Shown here one piece after another: positions 60-48,196 of a stretch of DNA of 64,000 nucleotides (positions are counted from its first letter, which is position 1; each line of letters begins with the position of its first letter). The notes beneath the pieces are model-generated. The model saw nothing but the letters and a program-made list of their open reading frames with translations. It did not search any database and had not been told where the DNA came from. The translations under genes were made by a program, and so were the position numbers. Origin of the DNA: a virus (taxonomy: Duplodnaviria; Heunggongvirae; Uroviricota; Caudoviricetes); the IMG/VR virus record IMGVR_UViG_3300028422_000701; one strand, given 5' to 3'.

Positions 60-350
60 ATGGGAGAAAAAAATGTATGTGATATTATACTAGAATCACA
101 AAAAGTATTTAATAGTACTATAAATGATTTAATGTCATTACCACAAAGTGTTAAACGTGACACTGTTATTGGTTACACTCATTTTGTATGTGGTGCAATA
201 TTAATGGCAAATGAACGTAACTTACTTGGTGGTAGTACACGTGTTGTTGATGAGGATGACCCATATACTAGATATAATTACAACGAAGATGAAGAACCTT
301 ATTATGACGATGATGACGACACTTGTTTTTACAGCGGAGACGAAGATTAA
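60..350 (+). CDS. hypothetical protein with strongly acidic C-terminus
   Basis: ORF with RBS aaggagg upstream; C-terminal D/E-rich tail. Confidence 0.4.
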   Translation: MGEKNVCDIILESQKVFNSTINDLMSLPQSVKRDTVIGYTHFVCGAILMANERNLLGGSTRVVDEDDPYTRYNYNEDEEPYYDDDDDTCFYSGDED

Positions 351-1174
351 TAGTTTTGGAGGGAAATAAAATGGATAACTATGAAATTACAGGCAAAGAC
401 GTGTTAAAGATTACAGGAATTATATTAGGTATTGTTATATTCTTTATATTCCTATTTGGAAGTTTTAGAAGTATTAATGCTGGTGAAGTTGGCGTTAAGA
501 CAAGATTTGGTAAAGTTATAGGAACACAGTTAAATGAAGGTTTAAACTTTAAATTACCCATTGTAGAAAAGATTACTAAGATAAATGTTAAAGTTAATAA
601 ATATGAAATTACAGGTTCAGGAGCAAGTAAAGATTTACAGGATGTATCAATTGCAGTCGCAGTAAATTATAATGTTAATGCAGATAAAGCAACTGACCTA
701 TTTAAAAATGTAGGTACTAATTATGAAGTAACTATTATTGCACCTGCAGTACAAGAAGCAATTAAATCAGTTGTGTCATCTTACACTGCCGAAGAGCTTA
801 TTACTAAAAGAGCAGAAGTATCTTTAAAAATAAGTGAAGTACTTGAAAGTAAAACAGGTGACTACGGTCTAAACATTCAAACAATAAATATAACTAACTT
901 TAATTTTAGTGCTACTTACACGGCGGCTATTGAAGCAAAACAAGTTGCTGAAATGGAAGTTGCTACTGCTAAAAATAATTTAGAAAAAGCTAAAGTAGAA
1001 GCTGAAACAAAAGTTGTTGAAGCACAAGGAACTGCTGATGCTAATAAATTACTAGAAACAAGTTTAACACAGGAAATTATACAAAAAAGTTTTATTGAAA
1101 AATGGGATGGAAAGTTACCTACTGTATATGGTAGTAGCAACAGTATTCTTGATATCTCAGGATTAATTAAATAA
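323..1174 (+). CDS. SPFH/band-7 (prohibitin/HflKC-like) membrane protein
   Basis: N-terminal TM helix followed by GEVGVKTRFGKV band-7 core and a coiled-coil C-terminus. Confidence 0.6.
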   Translation: MFLQRRRRLIVLEGNKMDNYEITGKDVLKITGIILGIVIFFIFLFGSFRSINAGEVGVKTRFGKVIGTQLNEGLNFKLPIVEKITKINVKVNKYEITGSGASKDLQDVSIAVAVNYNVNADKATDLFKNVGTNYEVTIIAPAVQEAIKSVVSSYTAEELITKRAEVSLKISEVLESKTGDYGLNIQTINITNFNFSATYTAAIEAKQVAEMEVATAKNNLEKAKVEAETKVVEAQGTADANKLLETSLTQEIIQKSFIEKWDGKLPTVYGSSNSILDISGLIK

Positions 1175-7393: not shown

Positions 7394-7621
7394 GTAAATA
7401 TCACTGAGGAATCAAACCGATTTTCTTAAGGAGGTATTTATGGAGATATTAAAAAGTCTTTATGAACTAGAACTTCTTATTGGATTAGTATCAACTATTA
7501 TTTTTATTTTGTTATTTAATAAATTATCAGAACTTAATAAAAAGTTAATAGTTAAATCAATAAGGGTATTATTAAATAAAGAATAATAATATTTAACCTA
7601 TTAATAGTGAGGAGGAATAAT

Positions 7622-8566
7622 ATGAATAAATATTTAAGTTTAGTACGTTACCCAAAAGATTTAGCAATAGATGCATTAAGTAGTTTTGACGAAATTACTG
7701 TTACTGAAAAAGTAGATGGGTCTAATGCAAGTTTTAAATTGAACAAAGATGGAGAAATTAAATGCTATAGTAGAACTATGGAATTAAAAGGTGAAAACGG
7801 ATTAAATGGTTTCAAACAGTGGGTGTTAAGTAATGTTAAAAAGGAAGATTTAATTCCTAATATTATTTATTTTGGTGAGTGGTTAACAAGACACAAGGTA
7901 GTTTATCCTGAGGAATGTTATAATAAGTTTTACTTATTTGACTTATATGATGAGGTAAGAAACATTTATATAAATCCTTTTAGCGTAACTAGTGTTATTA
8001 ACTTGGTACAACAAACAGAAGGAATGAAGTTTGCTCCTTGTTTATATGCAGGAAAGAACCAACCAATTAGTTTCCTTAAAGAGTTATTAAGTGAAAGTAA
8101 ATTAAGGGAAGGTATACCTGAAGGAATAGTTATTAAGGATTACGACTATAGAAATATTCATAAAGAACTAGTAATAGTTAAGTGGCTTAATGAAGAGTTT
8201 CAAGAGTTTACACCACAAAAACAACCAAAAGTAATAAAAGAATTAACAACTGAAGAGGATATAATGAACGTTTGGTGTTTAAGCACTGTCACACAAAATA
8301 GAGTTGATAAATCAATTTTAAAATTACAGGATGACAATATACTTGAACCAAAGTTGATTATAGACCACATGAAAGACTATATTAATTTAGTAAATAAATA
8401 TGTTTATGAAGATGTAGTTAAGGAAGAATTAGAAGGATTTTTAAGTGAAAACAAAACTATTATCACTGAAGAAGAAGTTCTAAAGTGGTTAGGTAAGTTT
8501 GTAAGTTCACACGTACCAAGAATGATTAAATATTATATTGGTACATTAAACAAAGAAGGAGAATAA
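7622..8566 (+). CDS. ATP-dependent RNA ligase, Rnl2-like
   Basis: nucleotidyltransferase motif I TEKVDGSN; motif IV EGIVIKDYD; RBS gaggagg before ATG 7622. Confidence 0.6.
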   Translation: MNKYLSLVRYPKDLAIDALSSFDEITVTEKVDGSNASFKLNKDGEIKCYSRTMELKGENGLNGFKQWVLSNVKKEDLIPNIIYFGEWLTRHKVVYPEECYNKFYLFDLYDEVRNIYINPFSVTSVINLVQQTEGMKFAPCLYAGKNQPISFLKELLSESKLREGIPEGIVIKDYDYRNIHKELVIVKWLNEEFQEFTPQKQPKVIKELTTEEDIMNVWCLSTVTQNRVDKSILKLQDDNILEPKLIIDHMKDYINLVNKYVYEDVVKEELEGFLSENKTIITEEEVLKWLGKFVSSHVPRMIKYYIGTLNKEGE

Positions 8567-8567
8567 T

Positions 8568-8996
8568 ATGAAAAAAGTTAAGTTAATTTATAATTGGAAA
8601 CATAATAATACAGTATACAAGGCATGGGATAAGATATATATTAGTTTAGAAGGTATTTTAAAGGATATGAATCTTGAAGATGAAAAAGTCGCTGACCTTT
8701 ACATAGCCTTATTAAAAGGTGAAGGTAAATGTACTTTTGAAGGAGTAAATATTGAAAAAATAATTGATACTACTAAAACAAGTACAAGTTCAGATACTAC
8801 GGTAAACCTTTTTAATAGTTTCCAAGATGCAGTTAAATTTATGACAAGTTTTAAAAAACAATATGGAGATAACTTTTTGTATACAAACTTTACTGATATT
8901 AAATATGATAAGGCATATCGTTTAGAAAATAAAAATAAGGATGCTGTTGAATCATTAGTATTACAAGATGTAACAGTTGCTTGTTTAAAAAAATAA
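8568..8996 (+). CDS. hypothetical protein
   Basis: ORF with RBS. Confidence 0.4.
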   Translation: MKKVKLIYNWKHNNTVYKAWDKIYISLEGILKDMNLEDEKVADLYIALLKGEGKCTFEGVNIEKIIDTTKTSTSSDTTVNLFNSFQDAVKFMTSFKKQYGDNFLYTNFTDIKYDKAYRLENKNKDAVESLVLQDVTVACLKK

Positions 8997-8997
8997 G

Positions 8998-10149
8998 ATG
9001 AATAAATATCGTAAACAATTTTTAAACGAAGTACATAATGATTTTAAAGGGGTTTATAAACATTTATGTGAATTAGAAAAGGATGGGTATATTAATATAA
9101 AACAACATGATACCTATCCTAATCTTAAACTTTTTAATTATACCGACCTATGTACATTTGAAAGGAAATGGGACTACTATACACTTAATTGTAGGGGTTT
9201 AGTACTTGACACAGACAAACAAGAAATTGTAGCCCTACCTTTTTTAAAATTCTTTAATTATAATGAATTTGATTCAGAACTTTGTAAACCACAAAATGAC
9301 AATTATGAAGTTTATGAAAAAGTTGATGGTAGTTTAGGTATTGGTTTTTGGTATAATGATAAGGTAATGTGGGCAACACGTGGTAGTTTCACAAGTACCC
9401 AAGCAATCAAAGCACAAGAAATGTGGGACAAAGAAGAACGTGATTACTGTGGTTACGGCTCTACTTTACTTGCAGAAATTGTATACCCTGAGAATAGAAT
9501 TATTATTGACTATGGTAAGTACGAGGGTTTAAAACTATTACAACAAATAGATAATAAAACAGGAAATGAATGCAGTTACGAAAGGTTATTAGAACTTAGA
9601 GATTATACTAACATTGACATAGCTAACAAAGAAGAAATAAACAGTATTGAACAACTTATTGAAAATATAAATAAATATAAAGGTACTGAAAGGGAAGGTT
9701 ATGTTTTAAAGTTTAAAGATTGTACTAGGTTAAAAATAAAGAACAAAGAATACTTAAATATTAATAGATTGGTATTTGGTATTAGTGATAGAAGTTTAAC
9801 CGAAAACTGGAGAGATGGTAAAGCTGAAGACTATTTAAGCTTAATACCTGAAGAGTTTACCGAGAGTATAAAAGAAAAGTTTCAGTTACTTGACAGTGCC
9901 TTATTATATTGGAAACTAGAAGTAGCAAGTGCAGTTAGGTTTATAAATCACTTTCATATTGAAAGAAAAAATGTACAAAAAGAATTAAGGACAATGTTTG
10001 ACCCAATAACTATTAATTGTGTGTTTGAACATTTTAAATGGCAAGAAACTTGTAATACAGTTTACACATATCCCTTACAAGATGCAGTTAACAAACTGTT
10101 AAGGGAACATATATATCGTAACTATAGAGAATATATTAAGGGGGAATAA
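8998..10149 (+). CDS. ATP-dependent RNA ligase, T4 Rnl1-like
   Basis: motif I EKVDGSLG (T4 RnlA has KEDGSL); motif IV EGYVLKF; motif V LKIKNKEY. Confidence 0.55.
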   Translation: MNKYRKQFLNEVHNDFKGVYKHLCELEKDGYINIKQHDTYPNLKLFNYTDLCTFERKWDYYTLNCRGLVLDTDKQEIVALPFLKFFNYNEFDSELCKPQNDNYEVYEKVDGSLGIGFWYNDKVMWATRGSFTSTQAIKAQEMWDKEERDYCGYGSTLLAEIVYPENRIIIDYGKYEGLKLLQQIDNKTGNECSYERLLELRDYTNIDIANKEEINSIEQLIENINKYKGTEREGYVLKFKDCTRLKIKNKEYLNINRLVFGISDRSLTENWRDGKAEDYLSLIPEEFTESIKEKFQLLDSALLYWKLEVASAVRFINHFHIERKNVQKELRTMFDPITINCVFEHFKWQETCNTVYTYPLQDAVNKLLREHIYRNYREYIKGE

Positions 10150-12520: not shown

Positions 12521-12931
12521 ATGAATAAAAATACACAAATGCACGAAGATATAACTACTAATTTACATAAAATATATGTAGCTAAGAATCATGATTATGG
12601 TAATAGTGTACATGATACATATGAAAAATACGGTTTAGTTTCATTTTTAGTAAGAATGGAAGATAAAATAAGTAGAGCAAGAACTTTAGACCAAAAGAAG
12701 GAACAATATGTTTCAGACGAAAAGTTGGAGGATACTTTACTTGACTTAGCTAATTATGCTATAATGGCAGTAATGGAATTAAGATTGGCTAAAGAACAAC
12801 TAACACAAGAGGATTGTGTTGAAGAAAATACCAGTTATTTTGTAGAAGGTTACACTGTTAAGGATAATCAAATTGTAAGTGTAAAAGATAATAAGGTTGT
12901 GGAAATAGATGAAACTAAAATTAGCTGGTAA
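12521..12931 (+). CDS. hypothetical protein, possibly MazG-like all-alpha NTP pyrophosphohydrolase
   Basis: E/D-rich helical pattern RMEDKISRAR...LEDTLLDLANYA; position between nrdD and nrdG. Confidence 0.3.
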   Translation: MNKNTQMHEDITTNLHKIYVAKNHDYGNSVHDTYEKYGLVSFLVRMEDKISRARTLDQKKEQYVSDEKLEDTLLDLANYAIMAVMELRLAKEQLTQEDCVEENTSYFVEGYTVKDNQIVSVKDNKVVEIDETKISW

Positions 12932-13931: not shown

Positions 13932-14882
13932 ATGAGTAAAGTAATAATGATGGTAGGGTTGCCTGGAAGTGGCAAAACAACATTTGCAAAAAATGTTTTA
14001 ATGAAAAAAGATAATTATATATATTTAAGTAGTGATGATTTACGTGTAGAATTATTTGGGTTTGAATACCAAACACGTAATGATGAATTATTTAAGGAAT
14101 TAGGTAGAAGATTAAAAGCTGCTATCGTTAATAAGCAAAATGTAATATATGATGCCACTAATATAAATAGAAAAAGAAGAATGGGGTTAATAAGAAATAT
14201 AAAACAATTAGATCCTAATGGTGAAGTTGAAGCATATTGTTTATGTATACCTTATGAATTTATACTTAATAGAAATTTAGTTAGAGAAGAACGTCATATA
14301 CCTGAAGATAAATTAGAACAAATGTATAGAGGTTTTAATGTACCTATAATGTCAGAGGGATTTAGTGATATTACGTTGTTAACTGTTACTGATACAATAA
14401 CTGCAAATGTGTTTAAAGGTTTTGTAGCGGAAACACAAGAAGGACGTTTACATTTAGACTTATTACCTTATTACAATGAATTAAAGGATTATGATCAAAA
14501 GAGTATTTATCATGATTTTACACTAGACAAACATATTGAAAATGTGTTTAATAGAACGTGTGAAATTAAAAATGTAAACGGTGCTTTATGTTTAGCAGCT
14601 GCTTTACATGATATTGGTAAACCTGACTGTTGCACTGTAAAGGAAGATGGTATACACCACGGTTTTGCAGGACATGAAAATGTAAGTGGGTATAAAGCAG
14701 CTATGTTATTAGGTAGATGCGATATATTAAGTAAAGAAACTAAAGATTTAGTTTTAACTATAATTAATTTACATATGATGATTAAAAATAGTGAAATTTC
14801 AGATGACACATTACTTGAATATTGTGGTAGTGAGGAATACCTAAACTATTTAAAAATGTTTAATAATTGTGACCAAAATTAA
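13932..14882 (+). CDS. P-loop polynucleotide kinase-like N-domain fused to HD phosphohydrolase domain (RNA-repair Pnkp-like)
   Basis: Walker A MVGLPGSGKTTFAKN; HD motif AALHDIGKP...HHGFAGHE. Confidence 0.55.
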   Translation: MSKVIMMVGLPGSGKTTFAKNVLMKKDNYIYLSSDDLRVELFGFEYQTRNDELFKELGRRLKAAIVNKQNVIYDATNINRKRRMGLIRNIKQLDPNGEVEAYCLCIPYEFILNRNLVREERHIPEDKLEQMYRGFNVPIMSEGFSDITLLTVTDTITANVFKGFVAETQEGRLHLDLLPYYNELKDYDQKSIYHDFTLDKHIENVFNRTCEIKNVNGALCLAAALHDIGKPDCCTVKEDGIHHGFAGHENVSGYKAAMLLGRCDILSKETKDLVLTIINLHMMIKNSEISDDTLLEYCGSEEYLNYLKMFNNCDQN

Positions 14883-14909
14883 AAAAGTTTAAAAATTTCA
14901 CAAAAAAGT

Positions 14910-14938
14910 ATTTACAAATCAGATCTTATATGTTATAA
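14910..14938 (+). promoter_or_regulatory. strong promoter TTTACA-N17-TATAAT (TG-extended) at the head of the 1-kb ORF-free region
   Basis: tttaca 14910-14915; tgttataat 14930-14938. Confidence 0.55.
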
Positions 14939-14944
14939 TATATA

Positions 14945-15855
14945 CATAAAGTTAATTAAGAGGAAAAAATGTATAAGCAAGCATTTATTAACTTTATACT
15001 GTATAAGCGCAAAAAGACCCCTGTTTTATAAACGTTACCTTTACAGGTAGCGCAAGAAATATAATTATTTTGATAATAATCGTATTTCTTGCAGTACTTG
15101 TAAAAGTACTATTTAGGTACAACCAGCAACAACATAGTAATTAACGATGGTTAATATTTGTCTTTATATCTTTACGATATCAGGACATATCGACACTGTG
15201 TAAAAGTAATTTTACACTTGTCAAAAGCATAAAGAGACTACGGTTTCTTTGTACATTTAAAACGTACCTAGCTATACATATACAAAACTTTAGATACATA
15301 CAGCAATTAAAAATAAAAAAAGAAAATGCCGAAATTTTTCAAAAATGTATCTAGTTAAGTTTAGTTTACTCAAATGTTGATTAGGGTCGATATGGGATTA
15401 AATGCTAGACTTAAAGACAACACTACCTTCGAATGAACTTAATACAAAGGCAAAGTTAATTCTTTGCTTCATGGGCATAATGTCTACTTAACTTGTAAAA
15501 ATGTACCCCAGCACCAGAGCCAAGTAATTGCGGTACATAGGTAGATTAACGAAGTATACATTAGTTAATGATAACAATAGTAATTTGAATTTTCCGGGAA
15601 TTCGAAAGTTTGGGAAACGGTTATTGTTTAAAGTTATACCCATGAAGGAAAGAATTAATTTCCAAAATTAGATACTTACAGCAACTTAAAAATTAGGTCG
15701 CCAAAACACGTATTTGACTAAATACACGTATCTAGATAGTTAAAAAGTATATAATTAGATTCTCACAGCAAACCAAAATAAAGGAAGAATTTGTAAATCT
15801 TAACCAAAAGAATCTAGCATTATATAAATAACTACCTACGGGTAGTTTTCTTTTC
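14945..15855 (+). ncRNA. candidate structured non-coding RNA locus (possible Y-RNA-like partner of the downstream Ro60-like gene)
   Basis: no ORF of 60 aa or more in about 1 kb; promoter at 5' end, hairpin plus T-run at 15831-15855; two perfect 7-bp hairpins with GTAA loops at 15093-15110 and 15199-15216. Confidence 0.3.
15831..15855 (+). terminator. rho-independent terminator
   Basis: aactacc-tacg-ggtagtt hairpin followed by ttcttttc. Confidence 0.5.
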
Positions 15856-15876
15856 AAATAAAAGGAGGAATAAATT

Positions 15877-17412: not shown

Positions 17413-17417
17413 ATAAA

Positions 17418-17441
17418 ACTCACATAATGTGAGTTTTTTTG
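17418..17441 (+). terminator. rho-independent terminator
   Basis: actcacat/atgtgagt hairpin followed by T7. Confidence 0.6.
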
Positions 17442-17491
17442 TTTACTTTTAAGTAAAAATATGGTATAATATATACATAAGGAGAGTTAAT

Positions 17492-17917
17492 ATGGAAAAT
17501 AATGTAATAGACTCATTTAGTGGTGAGTATGAATTTTTAAGTAATTTTTATGTTAGAGAAATGACCTTTAGAGGTTTAAAATGTACAAGTTCAGAATCGG
17601 CATTTCAGGCTATGAAAACAACCAACTTAGAACAAAGGAAAGAAATTGCTGCTGCTTTACCTTCAAGATCTAAAAGACTTGGTAGAAAAGTACAACTAAG
17701 AAATGATTGGGATTATATAAAAACAAATGTTATGTATGAAATAGTTTTGGCTAAGTTTACACAACATCCTGATTTAAAACAAAAGTTATTAGACACAGGT
17801 GATGCTAAGTTAGTTGAAGGTAATACTTGGGGAGACCAATTTTGGGGTGTTTGCGACGGTGTAGGACAAAATGAACTCGGTAAAATATTAATGTGGGTGA
17901 GGTTTGAATTATCATGA
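17492..17917 (+). CDS. NADAR (YbiA/DUF1768) domain protein
   Basis: FLSNFY...SSESAFQAMK signature of the NADAR fold. Confidence 0.6.
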   Translation: MENNVIDSFSGEYEFLSNFYVREMTFRGLKCTSSESAFQAMKTTNLEQRKEIAAALPSRSKRLGRKVQLRNDWDYIKTNVMYEIVLAKFTQHPDLKQKLLDTGDAKLVEGNTWGDQFWGVCDGVGQNELGKILMWVRFELS

Positions 17918-18714
17918 TAGGACAAAAATCATTAATTAATTATATAGATAATATGAAAGAACTGCCTAAGTGTATTTTATTACAAGGTATTAGGGGTTCT
18001 GACACACATAGTGTGGCTAATTATATTAAAGATAAATACCCTAACCATCAACTTGGTATTATAGACACGTTAGATGTTGAAACATTTAAGTTAATAAATA
18101 TCGAAGCAGAACAAACAATAACACCATTAATAATTTATATTGATAACTTAGATTTAAGTAGTGTACAATGTCAAAATATTGTTTTAAAAGAACTTGAAAC
18201 AGAAAACAATTTAGTTCATTTTATACTTGGTTGTTCAAATAAGGAAAACATAATTAGCACAATAGTTACTAGAAGTGTTACTTTAAAAATGTTACCTTAT
18301 ACTAAACAAGATATGGAACTATACAAAATTAAATACCATATTAAAAATAATATTGATTTAAGTATTATTGAGACACCAAAAGAATTACAGTATTGTGATA
18401 CTATTTACGATAAAATGGAAACAGTTATAAATACAGCTAATGCTTTAGTTTCAAAGTTACCAATAGTAAATACAAGTAACGCTTTAAAAGTTACTAAAAT
18501 TATACTTGACTTAGACACTAACCCAATGTTAATTACTATCTTTACTCACATATTACAAAAAGAAATTATGGGTAGTGATTACTTTTCAACAGGTCAAAAA
18601 ATAAAAATGGAATATATGTTGGAACGTACATTACAGGAGTTAAATAATAATATAATAACACCTAGTAGTGCTTTAGACACCCTTATAATTAATTTAACAT
18701 ATACCATTATGTAA
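17914..18714 (+). CDS. hypothetical protein, possibly degenerate clamp-loader (delta-prime-like) subunit
   Basis: weak AAA-like pattern LLQGIRG and NIVLKELE sensor-like segment. Confidence 0.3.
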   Translation: MIGQKSLINYIDNMKELPKCILLQGIRGSDTHSVANYIKDKYPNHQLGIIDTLDVETFKLINIEAEQTITPLIIYIDNLDLSSVQCQNIVLKELETENNLVHFILGCSNKENIISTIVTRSVTLKMLPYTKQDMELYKIKYHIKNNIDLSIIETPKELQYCDTIYDKMETVINTANALVSKLPIVNTSNALKVTKIILDLDTNPMLITIFTHILQKEIMGSDYFSTGQKIKMEYMLERTLQELNNNIITPSSALDTLIINLTYTIM

Positions 18715-19521: not shown

Positions 19522-19541
19522 AAAGAATAAAGGTGGTAAAA

Positions 19542-20711
19542 ATGAATGATGCAATAAGTGTAATTACCAAATTAAAAGAAAAAGGTTTTGAAGCCTATTT
19601 AGTAGGTGGGTGTGTAAGAGATTACATACTTGATAAAGTCCCAAATGATTATGATATTTGTACTAATGCTTCACCTAGTGACATGATGCGAATATTTAAT
19701 TATGAACTTACAAATGGAATTGAATATGGTTGTGTAACAATACTTGAAGGTAGTTCTAAAATACAGGTTACTACATACAGAACTGAACAATACAATGGTG
19801 TTAATAGGTCACCTAGTGTTAGGTATAGTAGAGATGTTAAAGAAGATGTAATTCGTCGTGACTTTACAATTAATGGTTTGTTACAAGATGAAAACTTAAA
19901 TATTATAGACTATGTAGGTGGTGTACACGATTTAGTGTATGAAACAATTAAGTTTGTAGGTGACCCAAGAGAAAGAATTATGGAAGATCCTTTAAGAATA
20001 CTACGAGCAATAAGATTTAGTTGTACCCTTAATTTCACTATCGATCCAGACCATTTTATCATAATGAAAGAATTAAGAAATGAATTAAGTAGAGTAAGTG
20101 CTGAAAGGATACAATATGAATTAAATAAGATGTTTAGTTGTAACAATGTTAAACGTGCTATTTATTTATTAAAGGTACTTGGTTATGATTTTTATGGTTT
20201 ACCTATAAAGGACTGTTTTAACTATGTTACTAATGGAGATTACTTAATGCAACTTGCACATATAAATCATAGTTATTTATATAAAGTAAGTGACGTACTA
20301 AATAGTTTGAAATATACAAAAAGTGAAATTGCTATTGTAATTATGTACATTATGTGTTATAATAATATTGTTAATTCCAGTAACTTGGATGTAACCATAA
20401 AGGAAATAATTAATGAATATGGGGAAACTAATTTTTTAAAGGTTTGCGAATATATACGTAATTGTAATCAACCATTATATATAAATGTTTACTTTAGATA
20501 CAAAAATATTTTAAACAGAAAAGAAGCTTGTACTATTAAGGATTTAAAAATAAATGGGGAAGATTTAATTAAGCTTGATGTACCTGAACACAAACGTGCT
20601 AGGGTATTAAATTATTGTTTAGAAACAATACACGAGTTTCCAGTATTAAATACAAAACCAATGTTAAAAAGTATTATAAAAGACTTTTTACAAGAAGATT
20701 ATTTTGAATAA
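19542..20711 (+). CDS. cca: tRNA nucleotidyltransferase (CCA-adding enzyme)
   Basis: LVGGCVRDYIL and DYDICT head-domain motifs; ATG 19542 after aaggtgg RBS. Confidence 0.7.
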   Translation: MNDAISVITKLKEKGFEAYLVGGCVRDYILDKVPNDYDICTNASPSDMMRIFNYELTNGIEYGCVTILEGSSKIQVTTYRTEQYNGVNRSPSVRYSRDVKEDVIRRDFTINGLLQDENLNIIDYVGGVHDLVYETIKFVGDPRERIMEDPLRILRAIRFSCTLNFTIDPDHFIIMKELRNELSRVSAERIQYELNKMFSCNNVKRAIYLLKVLGYDFYGLPIKDCFNYVTNGDYLMQLAHINHSYLYKVSDVLNSLKYTKSEIAIVIMYIMCYNNIVNSSNLDVTIKEIINEYGETNFLKVCEYIRNCNQPLYINVYFRYKNILNRKEACTIKDLKINGEDLIKLDVPEHKRARVLNYCLETIHEFPVLNTKPMLKSIIKDFLQEDYFE

Positions 20712-20727
20712 TAAAGGTGGAGATTAA

Positions 20728-21528
20728 ATGAAATACTTTGTAGTAAGTGACATACACGGACATTTTAAGGAATTAAAGTATTACTTATACAAGGCAGGGT
20801 ATAGATACAAAAACCCTAAACATAAGATTATTGTATGTGGTGATATATTTGATAGGGGTAATGAGTCTTTAGAAGTACTTACCTATGTTAGAAGGTTACA
20901 ACGTAAAGATAAACTTATACTTGTAAGAGGTAACCACGAAAATTATTTTCAAATGTTCTTAGAAGGTGCAAGCATTGCATGGCATTGGTTTAATAATGGT
21001 TTTTACAAAACAGTTAATAGTTTAACAGGTTATGCAGACCATTTTAAGAGTACTATGGAATTATGGGAAAATAACCAAAGTGTTGAAGCTAATAATGTAA
21101 CTTACGATACTTACTTGAAGTATGAAAATTGGGTACGCGGTGATTTAACATCATACTACCATTGGTTATTACCTTGGTTACAACAATTACCTGATTATTA
21201 CGAAACAGAACACTATATATTTACCCACGCAGGTATTGACACAAATACTTATGATTATAGAACTCCAACTAGTAAAAGTTGGTTTGAATTACAACAAGAT
21301 GATGGAAGTTTCTTTAATAAAAGTATTTGTAATACTGAAAAAACTGTTGTTATTGGACATTTTGCAACAGACAGGTTACGTGATATGTATAATATACCTT
21401 TAACTAACACCACTAATGACATATTAGTTAGGGAAGATAAAAAGGTAATTGCTATTGATACCTGTACAATATTAACAAAAAGAATAAATGTTTTAATTAT
21501 AGAAGAAGAAGGAGAAGACAAACAATGA
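20728..21528 (+). CDS. Ser/Thr protein phosphatase-family metallophosphoesterase
   Basis: SDIHGH, GDIFDRG, GNHE motifs. Confidence 0.65.
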   Translation: MKYFVVSDIHGHFKELKYYLYKAGYRYKNPKHKIIVCGDIFDRGNESLEVLTYVRRLQRKDKLILVRGNHENYFQMFLEGASIAWHWFNNGFYKTVNSLTGYADHFKSTMELWENNQSVEANNVTYDTYLKYENWVRGDLTSYYHWLLPWLQQLPDYYETEHYIFTHAGIDTNTYDYRTPTSKSWFELQQDDGSFFNKSICNTEKTVVIGHFATDRLRDMYNIPLTNTTNDILVREDKKVIAIDTCTILTKRINVLIIEEEGEDKQ

Positions 21529-23818: not shown

Positions 23819-25062
23819 TATAGTGTTATTTGGTAAGTAGTAATAGGACCTTTTAATTCTTTGTTATATAGGAATGCTTGCATTGTTTTATAACTAGTTG
23901 TGTAACCTTTTTTATAGTGCCAGTTATCATCACCTGCAAGTGTACCAACAGTACGTTTAACAACACCACTTTTTTCCTTAACTTCCATATGATGTGTATG
24001 TCCTACAAACCATTCACTATACTCTGTAACACCCCATAGTGTTCTTTGTTCACTTTGCATAAGTTCAAATAGTCTATCTCCTTCATCGTCACCGTGGGTA
24101 AACCCAAGTAAGTTAATTCCAATTTGTCTGTATTGTCTACTCTTTGCACTACTGTCTACTGTAACTCTTCCATTATTACTGTACTGAGCTCTAAGTACTT
24201 CTAATGCAAAAAATGACATTTTAGTATCGTGATTGCCGGGTACATAAAATACATCAATATTACAATGGTTACTAAGTTCATCAATAATACTTTCTAACCA
24301 TTCTACCCCTTCCCTAAATACTTGTCTAAGTGTAGTTTGGGTGTCTTGTCTAGTACCATTAGTAGTAGTAACTTCTATATTATCGTAATGAAAAAAATCA
24401 CTACCTATTGGAAATAATATATTGTCAATAGTGTCTAAGTTTACACGATTTAATAATTCATACAAAGCATATTCATATCGACATTTTGTACTAAATATAT
24501 CTACATTATCGTCTACTTCTCCCTCCCAACTATACTTTCCAAAGTGTACGTCGTATAGTGGTAAAACAAGTGTATTATTATTAACCTCTTTAAACCTTAT
24601 TTTAGGCTCTTTTAACGGTGAGTCTGTTAACCTAGTAACAATATACTGTAACTCCTCTTTCCCGTTAAATACCCAGTTATTTATAGGCTTAAACGTAGCC
24701 TTAACATTATAGTTTGTTATAACCATTGGCTCCATTTGTTTGTTCTTCATTGTAACGTTGTGTGCACCACATTTGTACCCTGTACACTCCCATTTATCCC
24801 CGTCAATATCAAACAATGATCTAAGTTGATCTAATGTTAAATTGGCAGGGTTAGTATTTAATATTTTAGTGGCACTTAGCGTACCATTGTTGTAAATAAC
24901 TTCCCCATCCTGTAAATTAGGTTCAACTCCAGTTTGATCATTATTTTTTAATAAATCATTTATCTTTTGGTAAGTGGTTGGGTACTTATTAGGGTTCTTT
25001 TTGGCTCTACATATTGTACTTACACTTACTTTAAGTGTCTTTGCCAGTTGTTTGTTTGTCAT
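23818..25062 (-). CDS. HTH domain fused to calcineurin-like metallophosphoesterase
   Basis: N-terminal HTH LAKTLKVSVSTICRAKK; YVPGNHD and GHTHH motifs. Confidence 0.55.
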   Translation of the reverse strand: MTNKQLAKTLKVSVSTICRAKKNPNKYPTTYQKINDLLKNNDQTGVEPNLQDGEVIYNNGTLSATKILNTNPANLTLDQLRSLFDIDGDKWECTGYKCGAHNVTMKNKQMEPMVITNYNVKATFKPINNWVFNGKEELQYIVTRLTDSPLKEPKIRFKEVNNNTLVLPLYDVHFGKYSWEGEVDDNVDIFSTKCRYEYALYELLNRVNLDTIDNILFPIGSDFFHYDNIEVTTTNGTRQDTQTTLRQVFREGVEWLESIIDELSNHCNIDVFYVPGNHDTKMSFFALEVLRAQYSNNGRVTVDSSAKSRQYRQIGINLLGFTHGDDEGDRLFELMQSEQRTLWGVTEYSEWFVGHTHHMEVKEKSGVVKRTVGTLAGDDNWHYKKGYTTSYKTMQAFLYNKELKGPITTYQITL

Positions 25063-25417
25063 TTAGTTCCTCCTTCATTTGTAATAGTTCTAGTTTATCT
25101 TTGTATTGTAAATAACCTTTACGTAGCATATATTGATATATTTGTTTTCTAAGACTAGTTTCTTTTTCATGACAGTACTTACATAGTGTAATTAAGTTTT
25201 CGGGCAACCCTTTACCGCCGTGGCTACGACGCTCTATATGGTGAGTTTCTAAACAAACTATACCACCACATAGGGCGCATTTATTATGGTCACGGTGTCT
25301 AACAAACTCGAAAACTTCGTTACTTATCTGTAGACTTTGTTTTCTTTCCTGTTTGTTTTTTTGTCGTTGTCTTTTTTGTTTTAGTTGTTGTTCTTTTTGG
25401 TACATTAACTTCCTCAT
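25031..25417 (-). CDS. HNH endonuclease
   Basis: CALCGG...HHIERRSHGG...CKYCHE; start codon uncertain (overlaps neighbour). Confidence 0.55.
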   Translation of the reverse strand: MRKLMYQKEQQLKQKRQRQKNKQERKQSLQISNEVFEFVRHRDHNKCALCGGIVCLETHHIERRSHGGKGLPENLITLCKYCHEKETSLRKQIYQYMLRKGYLQYKDKLELLQMKEELNDKQTTGKDT

Positions 25418-31108: not shown

Positions 31109-31819
31109 TCACTCTCCTTTATATTTCCAAATATAACCCAAACCTGTCTTGTTTACACCTTGTAAACACTTACCAATAGTATCAACACAACAATTATTAT
31201 CTTTTGCCGCTTGTACTATACTTGGATAACTATTTAAAAATTTTCCTTCTTTACTATATTGTTCTATTTCTTTACCCATAATTAATTTACAGTTTTTATG
31301 TGCTAGTATTTCTGGTAACAAATAAACCTCGTGTTCATATAACCATACATACCCCTTACATAATATTTTATTACGACAAGCATAATTAATACTATTATAA
31401 TGAACCTTCATTTGTTTGGCAGCTATACCACTACTTTCAAAAATGTTTATTTGGTTACCATTTAAATCGTATTGTAAAACTGTTTTACTTCTTTTGTTGT
31501 CCTTACCACTATTAACAGGACAAGCATCCCCACCTATTGTTGAATTAAAACCTTTATTATAACTATTATATAAATCAACATAGTAAATTTCTTTTTGTTT
31601 TAACTCTTTCATTGTGTTTGCATTATCTATAACTTCCCACGTAAAGTAATCTTTTGGATATTTACTTAGAGCCTTTTGGAATTTGTGGTTCTTTTTAAGG
31701 TCGTAATAATGTTTTTTAATACGTTCTTTTAAGGTATGGGTAGTTATTCCAATATAAACTCTTCCATCTTTATGTGTGCATTTGTAAACAATGCCTTCCA
31801 TATTATTCTCCTTTCTCAT
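31109..31819 (-). CDS. GIY-YIG homing endonuclease
   Basis: GIVYKCTHKDGRVYIGITT GIY-YIG motif. Confidence 0.65.
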   Translation of the reverse strand: MRKENNMEGIVYKCTHKDGRVYIGITTHTLKERIKKHYYDLKKNHKFQKALSKYPKDYFTWEVIDNANTMKELKQKEIYYVDLYNSYNKGFNSTIGGDACPVNSGKDNKRSKTVLQYDLNGNQINIFESSGIAAKQMKVHYNSINYACRNKILCKGYVWLYEHEVYLLPEILAHKNCKLIMGKEIEQYSKEGKFLNSYPSIVQAAKDNNCCVDTIGKCLQGVNKTGLGYIWKYKGE

Positions 31820-32880: not shown

Positions 32881-33648
32881 TTATAATATTATATTACCTT
32901 CACTTGGTTTAATGTCTCTTTGTAATAAGTAAAGGTATGCATCTTTAATATCATTTTCTTCTTTAGCACCACGACCATATGTACCGTTGTCAATTTGTGT
33001 CATAACAAGTTTTAAGTAAGCCATAACGTCACTTAATACATCGTCACTAAATTTCATACCATTTAGCATAAATGCAATAACTTTTCTAACACATGGTTTA
33101 CATTTAAAACAAGGTTTTCCATCGTGTGGGAAGTAACAACTAAAACTGCCGTTCCATGCTTCTTCTAGTGTACCACCTTTGTCTAAATACATTTTAAGTA
33201 ATTCACGTTTAGTGTATTCTTTAAAGTCTACATTAATACGTATATTACGTTCTTCAGTCCAGTGTTGTTTTTGGTACAAGAAACTAAATAGTTCTCCTGC
33301 CTTTTGTGCGAACTCAGGACTCTTATCTAAAACTCTGTCCCCGTAAGTTGCACCCAAACATATTTCATCGCCATAGTTAGTTGCTATAGCAGTAAAATAT
33401 AAGTTACGTAAAGGAATTATTTTATCTTCCCTTTCAATACTATGTAGGTTAAGTACATCTTTTAGTACAATAACATCACTATCTAGTTTACTTATTTCTT
33501 CTTTACTATAGCTACTATTAATATCTATGTATAGTTTTACATCAGGTTCCCATATTTTACTTATTAACCAACTATCCATACCACCACTATAAAGTAGTAC
33601 TTTTTTACTTTTTGGGTTAAAGTCTGTCATAACCATTACCCCTTTCAT
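32881..33648 (-). CDS. queC: 7-cyano-7-deazaguanine (preQ0) synthase
   Basis: PP-loop LLYSGGMDS; C-terminal zinc cluster CYFPHDGKPCFKCKPC. Confidence 0.65.
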   Translation of the reverse strand: MKGVMVMTDFNPKSKKVLLYSGGMDSWLISKIWEPDVKLYIDINSSYSKEEISKLDSDVIVLKDVLNLHSIEREDKIIPLRNLYFTAIATNYGDEICLGATYGDRVLDKSPEFAQKAGELFSFLYQKQHWTEERNIRINVDFKEYTKRELLKMYLDKGGTLEEAWNGSFSCYFPHDGKPCFKCKPCVRKVIAFMLNGMKFSDDVLSDVMAYLKLVMTQIDNGTYGRGAKEENDIKDAYLYLLQRDIKPSEGNIIL

Positions 33649-38840: not shown

Positions 38841-39275
38841 CTAATCCTCCTCTGTGTAAGTTGCGAAACTTGTTGGTGTTTCGTATAATTTAATTTCTGT
38901 TACCTTCATACCTACTGGCAATGCCTCATTTATATCTTTAAACATAATACGACTCATGTTTTCACAAGTAGTTCTACAACCTATTACTTTATTTTTGTAA
39001 CCAAGTTCTTGGATATATTTTAAAATAGGTTCGTCACCACAAGCAATAAATGCGTGGTCATATTTTGATAAGATAGCTTCTTCTACGATAGATTTTAAGT
39101 TTTTAAAATCTATTATCATACCCTCTTTAGGGTGGGCTGTAATACTTTCAACTACTGGACCTGTTAAGGTTACAAATAGTTTATAAGTATGTCCATGAAT
39201 ATTTTTACATAAACCATCATGATTTAGTAATTGGTGAGAACAGTCAAAACTGTACTCTTTTGTTACGGTTAACAT
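38841..39275 (-). CDS. queD: 6-carboxy-5,6,7,8-tetrahydropterin synthase
   Basis: CSHQLLNHDGLCKNIHGHTYKL (Cx..HGH zinc motif). Confidence 0.7.
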   Translation of the reverse strand: MLTVTKEYSFDCSHQLLNHDGLCKNIHGHTYKLFVTLTGPVVESITAHPKEGMIIDFKNLKSIVEEAILSKYDHAFIACGDEPILKYIQELGYKNKVIGCRTTCENMSRIMFKDINEALPVGMKVTEIKLYETPTSFATYTEED

Positions 39276-39557: not shown

Positions 39558-40244
39558 TTATTTAATTGCTTGTAAAAATCTTTCTTCTAAGTGTTTATCA
39601 GTTCTAAATACACCTCTTGTACTTATAGTAACTGTACTACTATCAAATGGTGCTTCAACTCCTCTGGCTGTCATACAAGTATGTGTTTCTTCTAAACAAA
39701 CAATTACACCTTGTGCGTCCATTTCTTCCATTAAAGCATTTGCTATTTGATCACTTAGTCTTTCTTGTAGTTGGAAACGTTTAGCGTAACCTTCTACCAT
39801 TCTAGGTATTTTACTTAAACCAACTACTTTTTTATTAGGTAAATAACCAATACTTACATAACCATAAACAGGTAATACGTGATGTTCACAAACACTACGG
39901 CATTCAATACGTTTAACAATTACAATATCGTCATTACCACTATCTTTAAAGTTATAATCTAGGTCATCGTCATCTAAGTTAAATTGTACTTCTAAGTAGT
40001 CTTTAGGATTTTCACAATAACCTCTTGTCATTTCAAGCCAAGCTTTAACTACTCTAAAAGGTGTGTTTTTCATACCATTACTTTCACTATCACCACCACA
40101 AATGTCAATAAGTTTAGCAATACTAGGCATGATTTCGTTTTCTATACTTTCCATTATATCGTTATGGTCACCACTGCCTTTAATAATAACTCTATTTATG
40201 AGTAGTTTATTTATTTTTTCACGTTGTTTTTCATTTAATTCCAT
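39558..40244 (-). CDS. folE: GTP cyclohydrolase I
   Basis: CEHHVLP zinc-binding motif plus a D/N-rich insertion. Confidence 0.75.
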   Translation of the reverse strand: MELNEKQREKINKLLINRVIIKGSGDHNDIMESIENEIMPSIAKLIDICGGDSESNGMKNTPFRVVKAWLEMTRGYCENPKDYLEVQFNLDDDDLDYNFKDSGNDDIVIVKRIECRSVCEHHVLPVYGYVSIGYLPNKKVVGLSKIPRMVEGYAKRFQLQERLSDQIANALMEEMDAQGVIVCLEETHTCMTARGVEAPFDSSTVTISTRGVFRTDKHLEERFLQAIK

Positions 40245-40253: not shown

Positions 40254-41021
40254 TTACACGCCCTGCCTATTACCCCATACCAAAGTATGAAGTTGTAACA
40301 TAACATAAACGTCTTCCATATCACTTTCTAAAACCTTGGTAACAAGTTTTTCATAATCTTGTATTACCCTGTTTCGTACATTTAATATATCTTGTTCCCC
40401 AACGTCAGTGTTACCAACATTTAAGTACAATTTTATACCAGTTCTATTTGTACGTAGTTTAATATCTTGTATTAAGTTATAGTATCTACGAGCAAATTCA
40501 AAATCCTCGTCGTTAAATACTGGTATTTTAATTGTAACAGGTAAATTAAAACGTACTTTAGGATTATACATTAACCAATTACCTACGTTATCAATTACAT
40601 CAGGTTGTCCACTAGATGGTGCTTTTGGGCTAATAACCACATTGTCTACCTTGTCTAGCCAATCAGGTAATTTACTACCTTGTGTTTCAACATCCACTTT
40701 AATGTCAGCTTCATGTAATGCATTAATAACTTTACTAAAGTCATATAAACAAGGGTTACCACCTGTTAGTACAACATTTTTTGTATTTGTGTCTTGACAT
40801 TTAATTATTAATTCAAATAGTAGTTCATCTTCAGTATACACTTTTGTGTCATTATTTCTCTTCCAAGCAAACTTACTATCACACCAACTACAATTAAAAT
40901 CACACCCTACAACTCTAACAAATAAAGTTTTTTTACCTGTGTTAGGACCTTCTCCTTGTATTGTAGGACCTCAACCGAACACTTCGGCAACAGGTATTCT
41001 TACTGTTCTTTCGGTATTCAT
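40254..41021 (-). CDS. queE: 7-carboxy-7-deazaguanine synthase (radical SAM) interrupted by an in-frame TGA
   Basis: ATG 41021 gives MNTERTVRIPVAEVFG, then TGA (plus-strand tca 40971-40973), then GPTIQGEGPNTGKKTLFVRVVGCDFNCSWCDS continuing into the annotated ORF. Confidence 0.7.
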
Positions 41022-48114: not shown

Positions 48115-48191
48115 TGGTGCTCCCGATAGGACTCGAACCTACAAGACCTTGTTTCTAAGACAAGGATGTTTACCAGTTTCATCACAGGAGC
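48115..48191 (-). tRNA. tRNA with anticodon UAG (Leu anticodon) but class-I (short variable arm) shape
   Basis: acceptor GCTCCTG/CGGGAGC plus A plus CCA; anticodon arm CCTTGT-CTTAGAA-ACAAGG; T-arm GTAGG-TTCGAGT-CCTAT. Confidence 0.55.
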
Positions 48192-48196
48192 ATATT

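What the first reader, a model, noticed from the sequence alone, without database searches (positions are those of the whole stretch)
17492..17917. NADAR (YbiA/DUF1768) domain protein
The FLSNFY...ESAFQAMK signature is characteristic of NADAR. Recent literature reports NADAR reversing guanine ADP-ribosylation of DNA by DarT-type toxins, so a phage copy is a plausible counter-defence gene. It sits directly after the Ro60-like gene terminator with its own TGGTATAAT -10 element.
Basis: partly seen in the sequence, partly recalled or inferred. Interest (0 to 1): 0.5.

Follow-up and report, generated by a model that had tools for sequence, protein, structure and literature searches.

The report
Phage NADAR ADP-ribose-removing enzyme (AdfN-like)
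This is a real, intact phage gene for a small NADAR enzyme, about half identical to a T5-like phage protein shown to strip ADP-ribose off guanine in DNA and defeat the bacterial DarTG1 defence, so it is a new example of a known anti-defence gene, not a new kind of thing.

Summary
The ORF at 17492-17917 (+) encodes a 141-aa protein that matches Pfam NADAR (100 bits against a 35-bit cut-off). Its AlphaFold2 model (pLDDT 95.9) superposes on E. coli YbiA and on ADP-ribose-bound Phytophthora NADAR, and on nothing else in the PDB. The residues that contact ADP-ribose or are needed for catalysis in studied NADARs are almost all present: E35, K42, K61, R65, W73, E109, D115, W118.

The counter-defence idea is already published. 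Phage orphan NADARs ("AdfN") neutralise DarTG1. This protein is 49% identical over its full length to AdfN-Bas32, one of the validated cases. It also carries the Lys (K61) found in every NADAR that neutralises DarT1 without other phage factors. That Lys is missing in YbiA and T4 gp30.3, which do not.

It belongs to a large phage clade (530 phage records, at least 587 viral contigs) with no partner gene present in most of them. The window contains no detectable ADP-ribosyltransferase.

Verdict: interpretation supported, and a new member of a known kind. The substrate was not tested; guanine-ADP-ribose on DNA is most likely. RNA guanine-ADP-ribose and small NAD-derived molecules remain possible. 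Interest is low to moderate.

The parts
17415..17444 (+). Intrinsic terminator of the upstream DUF2828/vWA gene: hairpin 17415-17437 followed by a T-run.
   Evidence: Terminator scan. RNA fold -16.4 kcal/mol, z=-5.7.
17442..17470 (+). Sigma-70-type promoter: TTTACT (17442-17447), 17-nt spacer, extended -10 TGGTATAAT (17462-17470).
   Evidence: Best-scoring promoter-like site in 15.5-21 kb, 10 of 12 matches with TG. The TGNTATAAT motif is enriched 30 against 11.7 expected and follows gene strand over most of the window. Function is inferred, not shown.
17480..17484 (+). Shine-Dalgarno AGGAG, 7 nt upstream of the start codon.
   Evidence: Read directly from the sequence.
17492..17917 (+). NADAR (YbiA-like, AdfN-Bas32-like) coding sequence, 141 aa, stop TGA at 17915-17917.
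   Evidence: ORF. Pfam NADAR 100.2 bits. AlphaFold2 pLDDT 95.9. Foldseek TM 0.88 to YbiA and 0.85 to PnNADAR-ADPr. 49% identity to AdfN-Bas32.
17534..17551 (+). FLSNFY motif (residues 15-20).
   Evidence: L16, S17, N18 and F19 are invariant; F15 and Y20 are at least 90% conserved in 76 homologues. S17 and F19 are invariant across ours, AdfN-Bas32, AdfN-Bas60, YbiA and T4 AdfN.
17594..17617 (+). ESAFQAMK motif (residues 35-42), holding catalytic Glu E35 and phosphate-binding Lys K42.
   Evidence: Aligned to Phytophthora NADAR E43/K50 (chain numbering is paper +2) and to T4 AdfN E36/K43. The mutational importance of these residues is from PMC11543638 and PMC11825919.
17672..17686 (+). KRLGR (residues 61-65). 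K61 equals Phytophthora K75 / E. coli C7 K115. G64 and R65 contact ADP-ribose.
   Evidence: K61 is invariant in 76 homologues. C7 K115 is needed in vivo against DarT1 but not for catalysis. Lys is present in AdfN-Bas32 and AdfN-Bas60; Ala is found in YbiA and T4 gp30.3.
17816..17845 (+). EGNTWGDQFW (residues 109-118). E109 is the YbiA-subfamily Glu (Phytophthora E125); D115 equals D130; W118 equals W133.
   Evidence: Alignment to 8bau. D115 and W118 are invariant and E109 is at least 90% conserved in homologues. Subfamily rule from PMC11543638.
17914..17917 (+). ATGA overlap of the NADAR stop with the start of the next gene (clamp-loader-like, 17914-18714), suggesting co-transcription and translational coupling.
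   Evidence: Sequence. ORF list. Downstream gene matches phrog_5846 clamp loader at E=1.9e-10.

Best explanation
**What it is.** The gene encodes a stand-alone, catalytically competent NADAR N-glycohydrolase of the YbiA-like phage clade that includes AdfN-Bas32.

**How it most likely works.**
- It is transcribed by host RNA polymerase from its own extended -10 promoter. It is the first gene of an operon that continues into clamp-loader and CCA-enzyme genes (inferred).
- The enzyme binds the ADP-ribose moiety in the conserved pocket formed by K42, G64/R65, W73, K77, D115 and W118.
- Using E35 and E109 on either side of the distal ribose, it hydrolyses the N-glycosidic bond between ADP-ribose and the exocyclic amino group of guanine. 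This releases free ADP-ribose and restores the base.
- The likely physiological substrate is phage DNA ADP-ribosylated on guanine by a host DarT1-type (or other guanine-specific) ADP-ribosyltransferase. Removing the adduct lets replication continue, so the gene would be an anti-defence factor of the published AdfN kind.

**Shown here:** family membership, fold, conserved active site, close homology to a validated AdfN, orphan status, and the expression signals.

**Inferred:** enzymatic activity, the substrate being DNA, and the defence system countered.
For: - **HMM, structure and fold:**
- **ADP-ribose contact residues.** Of the 13 contact or catalytic residues described for the Phytophthora NADAR-ADPr crystal structure (PMC11543638), 11 are identical here. 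These are E35, K42, K61, G64, R65, V67, D72, W73, E109, D115 and W118. One is conservative (R93 to K77) and one differs (Y84 to R70, itself invariant in the clade).
- **Nearest characterised relative.** AdfN-Bas32 is 49% identical over the full length and is the sole NADAR in Bas32. It neutralises DarT1 on its own, rescues RB69, T5 and Bas25 on DarTG1, and is inactive against thymine-specific DarTG2.
- **General NADAR activity.** Every NADAR tested so far, including YbiA and T4 gp30.3, hydrolyses guanine-ADPr in vitro. T4 adfN is conditionally essential on DarTG1.
- **The in-vivo Lys.** K61 matches the Lys needed in vivo against DarT1. That Lys is present in all NADARs that neutralise DarT1 unaided and absent in YbiA and T4 gp30.3, which do not.
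- **Accessory-gene behaviour.** The gene has its own terminator-flanked promoter. Its neighbourhoods differ among homologues. It is present in Bas32 and absent at the same site in the related Bas28.
- **Macrodomain neighbour.** In 29 of 80 related viral loci a macrodomain gene lies beside the NADAR. This parallels T4's macrodomain AdfM plus AdfN pair against DarTG2 and DarTG1.
Against: - No activity, host or defence system was tested.
- 49% identity does not guarantee the same in-vivo specificity. YbiA and T4 gp30.3 have the same in-vitro activity but do not neutralise DarT1 when expressed alone.
- The protein lacks the basic N-terminal extension proposed to bind ssDNA in DarT1-linked NADARs. 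AdfN-Bas32 lacks it too.
- The local neighbourhood is as rich in RNA-repair genes as in replication genes.
- 31 of 80 related viral loci place the NADAR within 5 kb of NAD+ salvage genes. That also fits a small-molecule role.
- The K61 correlation rests on five proteins and on sequence alignment only.
Confidence: 0.6

Rival explanations
1. RNA de-ADP-ribosylase within a phage RNA-repair or tRNA-maintenance module. The enzyme would remove ADP-ribose from guanine (or cytosine) bases of tRNA, rRNA or mRNA modified by host or competitor ART toxins. It would work alongside the neighbouring RNA ligases, kinase, phosphoesterase, CCA-adding enzyme and DUF2828/vWA RNA-binding-type protein.
For: - NADARs reverse guanosine-ADPr on RNA (PMC11833690).
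- YbiA-type NADARs also reverse cytidine-ADPr (PMC12945103).
- The window carries Rnl2-like and Rnl1-like ligases, an AAA_33 kinase, a metallophosphoesterase, a CCA enzyme, a DUF2828 protein and 25 tRNA genes. The CCA enzyme and metallophosphoesterase lie in the same apparent operon as the NADAR.
- An association of NADAR with RNA repair has been proposed before (PMC9503650).
Against: - The adjacency is not conserved. Among 80 related viral loci, each RNA-repair gene appears within 5 kb in only 1-2 loci, and DUF2828 in none.
- NADARs are inactive on phosphate-end ADP-ribosylated RNA, the product type linked to RNA repair chemistry.
- The validated close homologue acts on DNA damage in vivo.
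Confidence: 0.12
2. Hydrolase of soluble NAD+-derived molecules. Substrates could be cyclic or linear ADP-ribose derivatives used as immune signals or toxins, or by-products to be recycled. The enzyme would support phage NAD+ homeostasis rather than repair nucleic acids.
For: - 31 of 80 closest viral loci have NadV-type phosphoribosyltransferase and NAD synthase within 5 kb of the NADAR. 29 also have a weak-Macro protein and 23 a Prs-like protein.
- This was predicted by Iyer et al. 2022 (PMC9503650).
Against: - The window itself shows no NadV, NadE, Macro, Nudix or Sir2 gene among more than 60 ORFs scanned.
- The window protein does not fall in the NAD-linked subclades of the tree.
- The Macro plus NADAR plus NAD-salvage grouping can equally be read as an island against ADP-ribosylating and NAD-depleting defences.
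Confidence: 0.15
3. Metabolite damage-control N-glycosidase like E. coli YbiA in riboflavin biosynthesis. It might here clear reactive ring-opened GTP-cyclohydrolase products that arise from the phage's own 7-deazaguanine pathway.
For: - The protein passes the NCBIfam equivalog-domain cut-off for 'riboflavin biosynthesis intermediates N-glycosidase' (84.1 against 73.7 bits).
- It has the YbiA-subfamily Glu E109.
- The window encodes GTP cyclohydrolase I, QueD, QueC and a weak radical-SAM match, possibly QueE.
Against: - There are no riboflavin genes in the window.
- The score is half that of YbiA itself (169.5). Uncharacterised phage NADARs of SPbeta and AR9 pass the same cut-off, so the model is not discriminating.
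- FolE and QueD homologues are never found near the NADAR in 80 related loci.
- T5-like and SPbeta-like carriers have no such pathway near the gene in the regions examined.
Confidence: 0.05
4. Self-immunity partner (antitoxin) for an ADP-ribosyltransferase encoded by the phage itself, analogous to DarT-NADAR or YarT-YbiA pairs.
For: NADARs serve as antitoxins next to ARTs in bacteria. T4-like phages express NADAR early along with ARTs.
Against: - No ART-like Pfam match appears among the ORFs scanned in this 64-kb window.
- The adjacent genes are a DUF2828/vWA protein and a clamp-loader subunit.
- The remainder of the phage genome is not available.
Confidence: 0.03

Closest known systems
AdfN-Bas32 (bas32_0066 of Escherichia phage IrisVonRoten, T5-like; Johannesman et al. 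2025)
   Same: Orphan phage NADAR of about 145 aa, core fold only. 49% identical over the full length. Shares E, K, KR.GR and the EGNTWGD..WGVC.G.G.N.LG motifs. Sits among early replication and nucleotide-metabolism genes.
   Different: Different phage lineage and host: an E. coli siphovirus against an uncultured ~29% GC phage whose DNA polymerase is nearest to Bacillus and Clostridium phages. Different neighbours. Activity is shown for Bas32 and only inferred here.
NADARs of Bacillus phages SPbeta-like (SPbetaL3) and AR9/PBS1
   Same: Closest annotated relatives at 58% and 56% identity. Same length and motifs. Firmicute phages.
   Different: Functionally uncharacterised as far as the searched literature shows. 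Contexts differ: near Gad1 in SPbetaL3, next to an SbcC ATPase gene in AR9.
E. coli YbiA (PDB 2b3w)
   Same: Same subfamily signature (Glu at the Phytophthora E125 position). TM 0.88, 37-39% identity. Hydrolyses G-ADPr in vitro.
   Different: YbiA is a chromosomal, LexA-operon gene with riboflavin-intermediate N-glycosidase activity. It lacks the K61-equivalent Lys (Ala) and does not rescue DarT1 toxicity.
T4 gp30.3 (AdfN-T4; Pfam Phage_30_3)
   Same: Phage orphan NADAR with the same catalytic Glu/Lys pair spaced 7 residues apart. Anti-DarTG1.
   Different: Only about 23-26% identity over a short stretch. The Phage_30_3 score is below cut-off (28.1 against 36). The literature reports His rather than Glu at the second acidic position. 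It needs the T-even context to work.
DarG1 / DarT1-associated NADAR (BC4488 family; E. coli C7, Geobacter lovleyi)
   Same: Same superfamily and chemistry. Shares the in-vivo-critical Lys (C7 K115 equals K61).
   Different: DarG1 has Asp instead of Glu at the second acidic site and an N-terminal basic extension, and is encoded next to DarT1. A profile of this clade does not detect the solved G. lovleyi NADAR even at E<=1. No DarT lies nearby here.
Phytophthora nicotianae NADAR (PDB 8bau, ADP-ribose complex)
   Same: TM 0.85. Nearly all ADP-ribose contact residues are conserved.
   Different: Eukaryotic, 27% identity, with extra N-terminal and inserted elements absent here.

Membership tests
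NADAR superfamily (Pfam PF08719 / DUF1768) | Profile HMM score above the curated gathering threshold over the whole domain. | tested here: met
   100.2 bits against 35.1, profile positions 9-162 of 163.
NADAR superfamily (Pfam PF08719 / DUF1768) | NADAR alpha+beta fold: helical core flanked by small beta-hairpins. | tested here: met
   AlphaFold2 pLDDT 95.9. Foldseek finds only YbiA (TMq 0.88) and PnNADAR (TMq 0.85) with E<=0.001.
NADAR superfamily (Pfam PF08719 / DUF1768) | Catalytic Glu and phosphate-binding Lys (Pn E43/K50; C7 E88/K95; T4 E36/K43). | tested here: met
   E35 and K42 are invariant in alignments A1, A2 and A5.
YbiA subfamily of NADAR (de Souza & Aravind classification as cited in PMC11543638) | Glu at the position of Phytophthora E125 (Asp in BC4488/DarG1 type, His in T4-type phage NADARs). 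| tested here: met
   E109 aligns to 8bau E125 and is at least 90% conserved in the clade.
DarG1 / BC4488-type DarT1-associated NADAR antitoxin | Encoded adjacent to a DarT1 (BC4486-like ART) gene. | tested here: not met
   The neighbours are a DUF2828/vWA protein and a clamp-loader subunit. No ART match was found in the window ORFs scanned.
DarG1 / BC4488-type DarT1-associated NADAR antitoxin | [quoted passage not shown] | tested here: not met
   The 141-aa protein begins about 10 residues before the FLSNFY motif. It has Glu, not Asp. A profile of the clade does not reach the solved G. lovleyi NADAR.
AdfN (anti-DarT factor NADAR; functional class of phage orphan NADARs) | Phage-encoded NADAR without a cognate toxin. 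| tested here: met
   The phage context includes tail proteins, DNA polymerase, primase, helicase and 25 tRNAs. It is the single NADAR in the window. No ART was found.
AdfN (anti-DarT factor NADAR; functional class of phage orphan NADARs) | Clear homology to an experimentally validated AdfN. | tested here: met
   49% identity, E=5e-44, full length, to AdfN-Bas32. 32% over 85 aa to AdfN-Bas60.
AdfN (anti-DarT factor NADAR; functional class of phage orphan NADARs) | Removes guanine-linked ADP-ribose from DNA and restores phage growth on DarTG1 hosts. | not testable with these tools
   Requires enzyme assays and plaque assays.
TIGR02464 riboflavin-intermediate N-glycosidase (equivalog domain) | Score above the curated cut-off. 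| tested here: met
   84.1 against 73.7 bits. YbiA scores 169.5, SPbeta and AR9 phage NADARs also pass, and AdfN-Bas32 scores 66.3. The cut-off therefore does not separate functions.
TIGR02464 riboflavin-intermediate N-glycosidase (equivalog domain) | Fusion to, or linkage with, riboflavin biosynthesis genes (ribA/ribD). | tested here: not met
   No riboflavin gene family was matched in the window ORFs scanned.
DS-32 NADAR anti-phage protein (NCBIfam NF053876) / PADLOC PDC-M42C | Score above the equivalog cut-off. | tested here: not met
   50.9 bits against a 240-bit cut-off. The PADLOC PDC-M42C hit (E=5.5e-15) reflects the shared domain only.

The most novel reading that the evidence does not exclude
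In this phage the NADAR may be an RNA-directed enzyme. It would be co-expressed with a CCA-adding enzyme and a metallophosphoesterase. It sits beside a DUF2828/vWA (Ro60-type) protein that is preceded by a highly structured ~1-kb non-coding stretch. It would strip ADP-ribose from guanine or cytosine bases of tRNA or other RNAs, adding base de-ADP-ribosylation to the phage RNA-repair toolkit against RNA-targeting ART toxins.
Probability: 0.12. Interest if true: 0.6.

Novelty: new member of a known kind. Interest (0 to 1): 0.25.

Why it matters
If the inference holds, it extends the AdfN anti-DarTG1 strategy to an uncultured, AT-rich phage that probably infects a Firmicute. So far the strategy has been shown only in E. 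coli phages.

The result also gives a testable rule of thumb. NADARs with the K61-type Lys in the KR.GR motif should neutralise guanine-specific DNA ADP-ribosylation on their own, and those with Ala there should not.

The clade is very common in phages (530 of 50,697 phage records, at least 587 viral contigs). A correct functional label would therefore improve the annotation of many "hypothetical", "swarming motility" or "riboflavin biosynthesis" phage genes.

It does not open a new biological question.

Tried and rejected
- **Nucleotide identification of the phage.** Megablast of 15-21 kb against 50,697 phage records found no match, so the phage cannot be identified at nucleotide level.
- **Syntenic relatives.** Searching viral contigs with the upstream DUF2828 protein found none.
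- **'Ro60-like' label.** A PDB sequence search with the DUF2828 protein gave no hit. A literature search for DUF2828 was uninformative. The label stays untested.
- **Known RNA family in the gap.** Rfam gave nothing in 14.8-17.6 kb apart from a chance miRNA hit below threshold.
- **DarG1-type membership.** Rejected: no DarT, no N-terminal extension, Glu rather than Asp, and a clade profile does not reach the G. lovleyi NADAR structure.
- **T4-type (Phage_30_3) membership.** Rejected: 28.1 bits against a 36-bit cut-off and about 26% identity over 57 aa.
- **DS-32 defence protein.** Rejected: 50.9 bits against 240.
- **Conserved partner gene.** Rejected for this gene. None of the window's neighbours recurs near the NADAR in 80 viral loci, except an SPFH/Band-7 protein in 16 loci.
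- **Net charge as a proxy for DNA binding.** Uninformative: pI 6.6 here, 7.9 for Bas32, 5.9 for Bas60, 9.4 for YbiA.

Full report
**Observation**

The ORF at 17492-17917 (+) is real: 141 aa, ATG start, TGA stop. It contains FLSNFY (residues 15-20) and ESAFQAMK (residues 35-42).

- It matches Pfam NADAR at E=1.9e-28 (100.2 bits, cut-off 35.1) over almost the whole profile.
- It matches NCBIfam TIGR02464 at 84.1 bits (cut-off 73.7) and phrog_1017 at E=5e-47.
- By sequence it hits only two solved structures: E. coli YbiA (2b3w, E=2.4e-17) and Phytophthora nicotianae NADAR (8bau, E=1.4e-8).
- An AlphaFold2 model built on 76 homologues is very confident (pLDDT 95.9, pTM 0.89).
- Foldseek against the PDB returns the same two structures (TM 0.88 and 0.85) and nothing else below E=1.

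- A 10-bp hairpin with a T-run lies at 17415-17444 (fold z=-5.7).
- A TTTACT-17-TGGTATAAT promoter lies at 17442-17470. AGGAG sits 7 nt before the ATG.
- TGNTATAAT occurs 30 times in the window against 11.7 expected. On the first 54 kb it lies on the strand of the local genes, so it is probably the phage's host-RNA-polymerase promoter type.
- The NADAR stop overlaps the next gene's start (ATGA, 17914-17917).

**Active site**

I used the HMMER alignment to 8bau (chain numbering is paper numbering +2, checked on ten residues). I compared it with the residue list of Schuller et al. 2023 (PMC11543638).

| Phytophthora NADAR | This protein |
|---|---|
| E43 | E35 |
| K50 | K42 |
| K75 | K61 |
| G78 / R79 | G64 / R65 |
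| V81 | V67 |
| D86 | D72 |
| W89 | W73 |
| R93 | K77 |
| E125 | E109 |
| D130 | D115 |
| W133 | W118 |
| Y84 | R70 (the only real difference) |

- E35, K42, K61, G64, R70, W73, D115 and W118 are invariant in 76 homologues. E109 is at least 90% conserved.
- E35 and K42 correspond to T4 AdfN E36 and K43, whose mutation impairs counter-defence.
- Glu at the E125 position places the protein in the YbiA subfamily. It is not the DarT1-linked BC4488 type (Asp) or the T4 type (His).

**What is known**

- Johannesman et al. 2025 (PMC11825919) showed that T4 gp30.3 and two unrelated NADARs from BASEL phages Bas32 (T5-like) and Bas60 (phi92-like) act as AdfN factors. They remove ADP-ribose from DarT1-modified DNA or neutralise DarT1, restore plating on DarTG1 hosts, and do nothing against thymine-specific DarTG2.
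- A transposon screen confirmed that T4 adfN is conditionally essential on DarTG1. It also found a macrodomain, AdfM, that acts against DarTG2.
- Cihlova et al. 2024 (PMC11125620) showed that every NADAR type tested hydrolyses guanine-ADPr in vitro. YbiA and T4 gp30.3, however, cannot rescue DarT1 toxicity when expressed alone.
- NADARs also act on guanosine-ADPr in RNA but not on phosphate-end ADPr. Some, including YbiA-type enzymes, act on cytidine-ADPr.

**Relation to the validated proteins**

- I retrieved the Bas32 genome (IrisVonRoten, MZ501075). bas32_0066 is its only NADAR ORF. The related Bas28 lacks a gene at that site.
- The window protein is 49% identical to bas32_0066 over its full length (E=5e-44).
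- It is 58% identical to the SPbeta-like NADAR and 56% to the AR9/PBS1 NADAR. It is 37% identical to YbiA, 32% over 85 aa to AdfN-Bas60, and about 26% over 57 aa to T4 gp30.3.
- A neighbour-joining tree places all these phage proteins, including AdfN-Bas32, in one clade with YbiA outside it.
- A profile of the clade does not detect the solved Geobacter DarG1-type NADAR.

One residue is informative. E. coli C7 NADAR K115 (equivalent to Phytophthora K75) is dispensable for catalysis but essential in vivo against DarT1. The aligned residue is Lys in AdfN-Bas32, in AdfN-Bas60 and here (K61). It is Ala in YbiA and in T4 gp30.3. That split matches which proteins neutralise DarT1 unaided. This is a correlation across five proteins, not a test.

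**Surroundings**

The window is phage DNA of about 29% GC.

- It carries tail genes, DNA polymerase, primase, helicase, a sliding-clamp-like factor and 25 tRNA genes.
- Its polymerase is nearest, at 36-39% identity, to those of Bacillus and Clostridium phages. No phage in the collection matches at nucleotide level.
- Upstream of the NADAR lie Rnl2-like and Rnl1-like RNA ligases, NrdD/NrdG, an AAA_33 kinase and the DUF2828/DUF7788/vWA gene.
- Downstream, in the same apparent operon, lie two clamp-loader subunits, a CCA-adding enzyme, a metallophosphoesterase and a DnaX-like clamp loader.
- More than 60 ORFs scanned gave no ADP-ribosyltransferase, macrodomain, Nudix or sirtuin match. There is only one NADAR in the window.

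**Is the context conserved?**

No, at least not for the genes next to it in this window. The family is abundant:

- 2,481 proteins at E<1e-5.
- 530 phage records, led by Streptomyces, Vibrio, Salmonella, Escherichia and Bacillus phages.
- At least 587 viral contigs.

In the 80 best viral loci, DUF2828 and clamp loaders never lie within 5 kb of the NADAR. Each RNA-repair gene does so in only 1-2 loci. Other contexts include an NAD-dependent DNA ligase with ThyX, an SbcC ATPase, RNase H with thymidylate synthase, and a site about 3.4 kb from the anti-Gabija gene Gad1.

The one recurrent neighbourhood, in 31 of 80 loci and several subclades, is an NAD+ salvage cluster: Prs-like, NadV-type phosphoribosyltransferase, weak-Macro protein, NADAR, NAD synthase. 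The window protein lies outside those subclades. That grouping fits either a small-molecule or NAD role, or an island directed against ADP-ribosylating and NAD-depleting defences (Macro/AdfM plus NADAR/AdfN plus NAD+ replenishment).

**Conclusion**

The gene is an intact, almost certainly active, orphan phage NADAR of the AdfN-Bas32 and SPbeta clade.

- The best-supported mechanism is hydrolysis of guanine-linked ADP-ribose on phage DNA, to counter a DarT1-type toxin (confidence about 0.6).
- The chemistry itself, an ADP-ribosyl N-glycohydrolase, is more secure than the choice of physiological substrate.
- Rivals are RNA base de-ADP-ribosylation within the local RNA-repair set (0.12), processing of soluble NAD-derived molecules (0.15), metabolite damage control (0.05) and self-immunity to a phage ART (0.03).
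- It is a new member of a known kind.

Noticed in passing
window 14883-15876 (+): A ~1-kb ORF-free gap lies just upstream of the DUF2828/vWA ('Ro60-like') gene. It is bounded by an extended -10 (TGTTATAAT, 14931-14939) and a terminator-like hairpin (15830-15847). It folds far better than shuffles (z=-7.8). It holds three copies of AGATNCNNACAGCAA (15292, 15670, 15757), found nowhere else in the window. It also has a 28-nt long-range inverted repeat (15453-15480 / 15634-15661) closing a ~210-nt element (z=-3.5). There is no Rfam match. It is a candidate non-coding RNA, conceivably a Y-RNA-like partner.
   Followed up: partly
window 32881-33648 (-), 38841-39275 (-), 39558-40244 (-), 40254-40841 (-), 12521-12931 (+): Genes of a 7-deazaguanine (preQ0-type) pathway: QueC-like, QueD/PTPS, GTP cyclohydrolase I, a weak radical-SAM match (possibly QueE), plus DUF1599 'nucleotide modification associated domain'. 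They suggest that guanine in phage DNA (or tRNA) is replaced by a deazaguanine derivative. No transglycosylase (DpdA/TGT) was identified.
   Followed up: partly
window 7607-10149, 13932-14882, 19533-21528 (+): A dispersed RNA-repair set interleaved with replication genes: Rnl2-like ligase, Rnl1-like ligase, AAA_33/KTI12-type kinase, CCA-adding enzyme and a calcineurin-like phosphoesterase.
   Followed up: partly
window 48115-54207 (-): An array of 25 tRNA genes covering most amino acids. It includes three tRNA-Met(cat), one of them 101 nt long at 52841-52941, and an Ile(tat).
   Followed up: no
loci L014, L018, L021-L025, L031, L037, L038, L043, L046, L055, L061-L065, L067, L068, L070-L075, L077, L078, L080-L082, L090 (about 2.5-6 kb in each): In 31 of 80 related viral contigs the NADAR lies within 5 kb of NAD+ salvage genes: Prs-like, NadV-type phosphoribosyltransferase, a weak-Macro protein and NAD synthase. 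In the largest groups the order is Prs, NadV, Macro, NADAR, NadE. This may be an AdfM-like plus AdfN-like pair joined to NAD+ replenishment.
   Followed up: partly
L009 (Bacillus phage SPbetaL3) 3998-4435 and 7799-8411: The closest annotated homologue (58% identity) lies about 3.4 kb from the anti-Gabija gene Gad1. It may therefore sit in an anti-defence region.
   Followed up: no
window 31109-31819 (-), 41018-41587 (-), 25031-25417 (-): Homing-endonuclease-type genes (GIY-YIG+NUMOD1 and HNH_3+NUMOD4) are inserted among the replication genes. An HNH Pfam match from the batch scan was not mapped to an ORF; 25031-25417 is a guess.
   Followed up: no
window 323-1174 (+): An SPFH/Band-7 family hit was found in the batch scan. 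The ORF 323-1174 was assigned to it by tblastn recurrence: homologues lie within 5 kb of the NADAR gene in 16 of 80 related viral contigs. In this window the ORF is 16 kb away from the NADAR.
   Followed up: no
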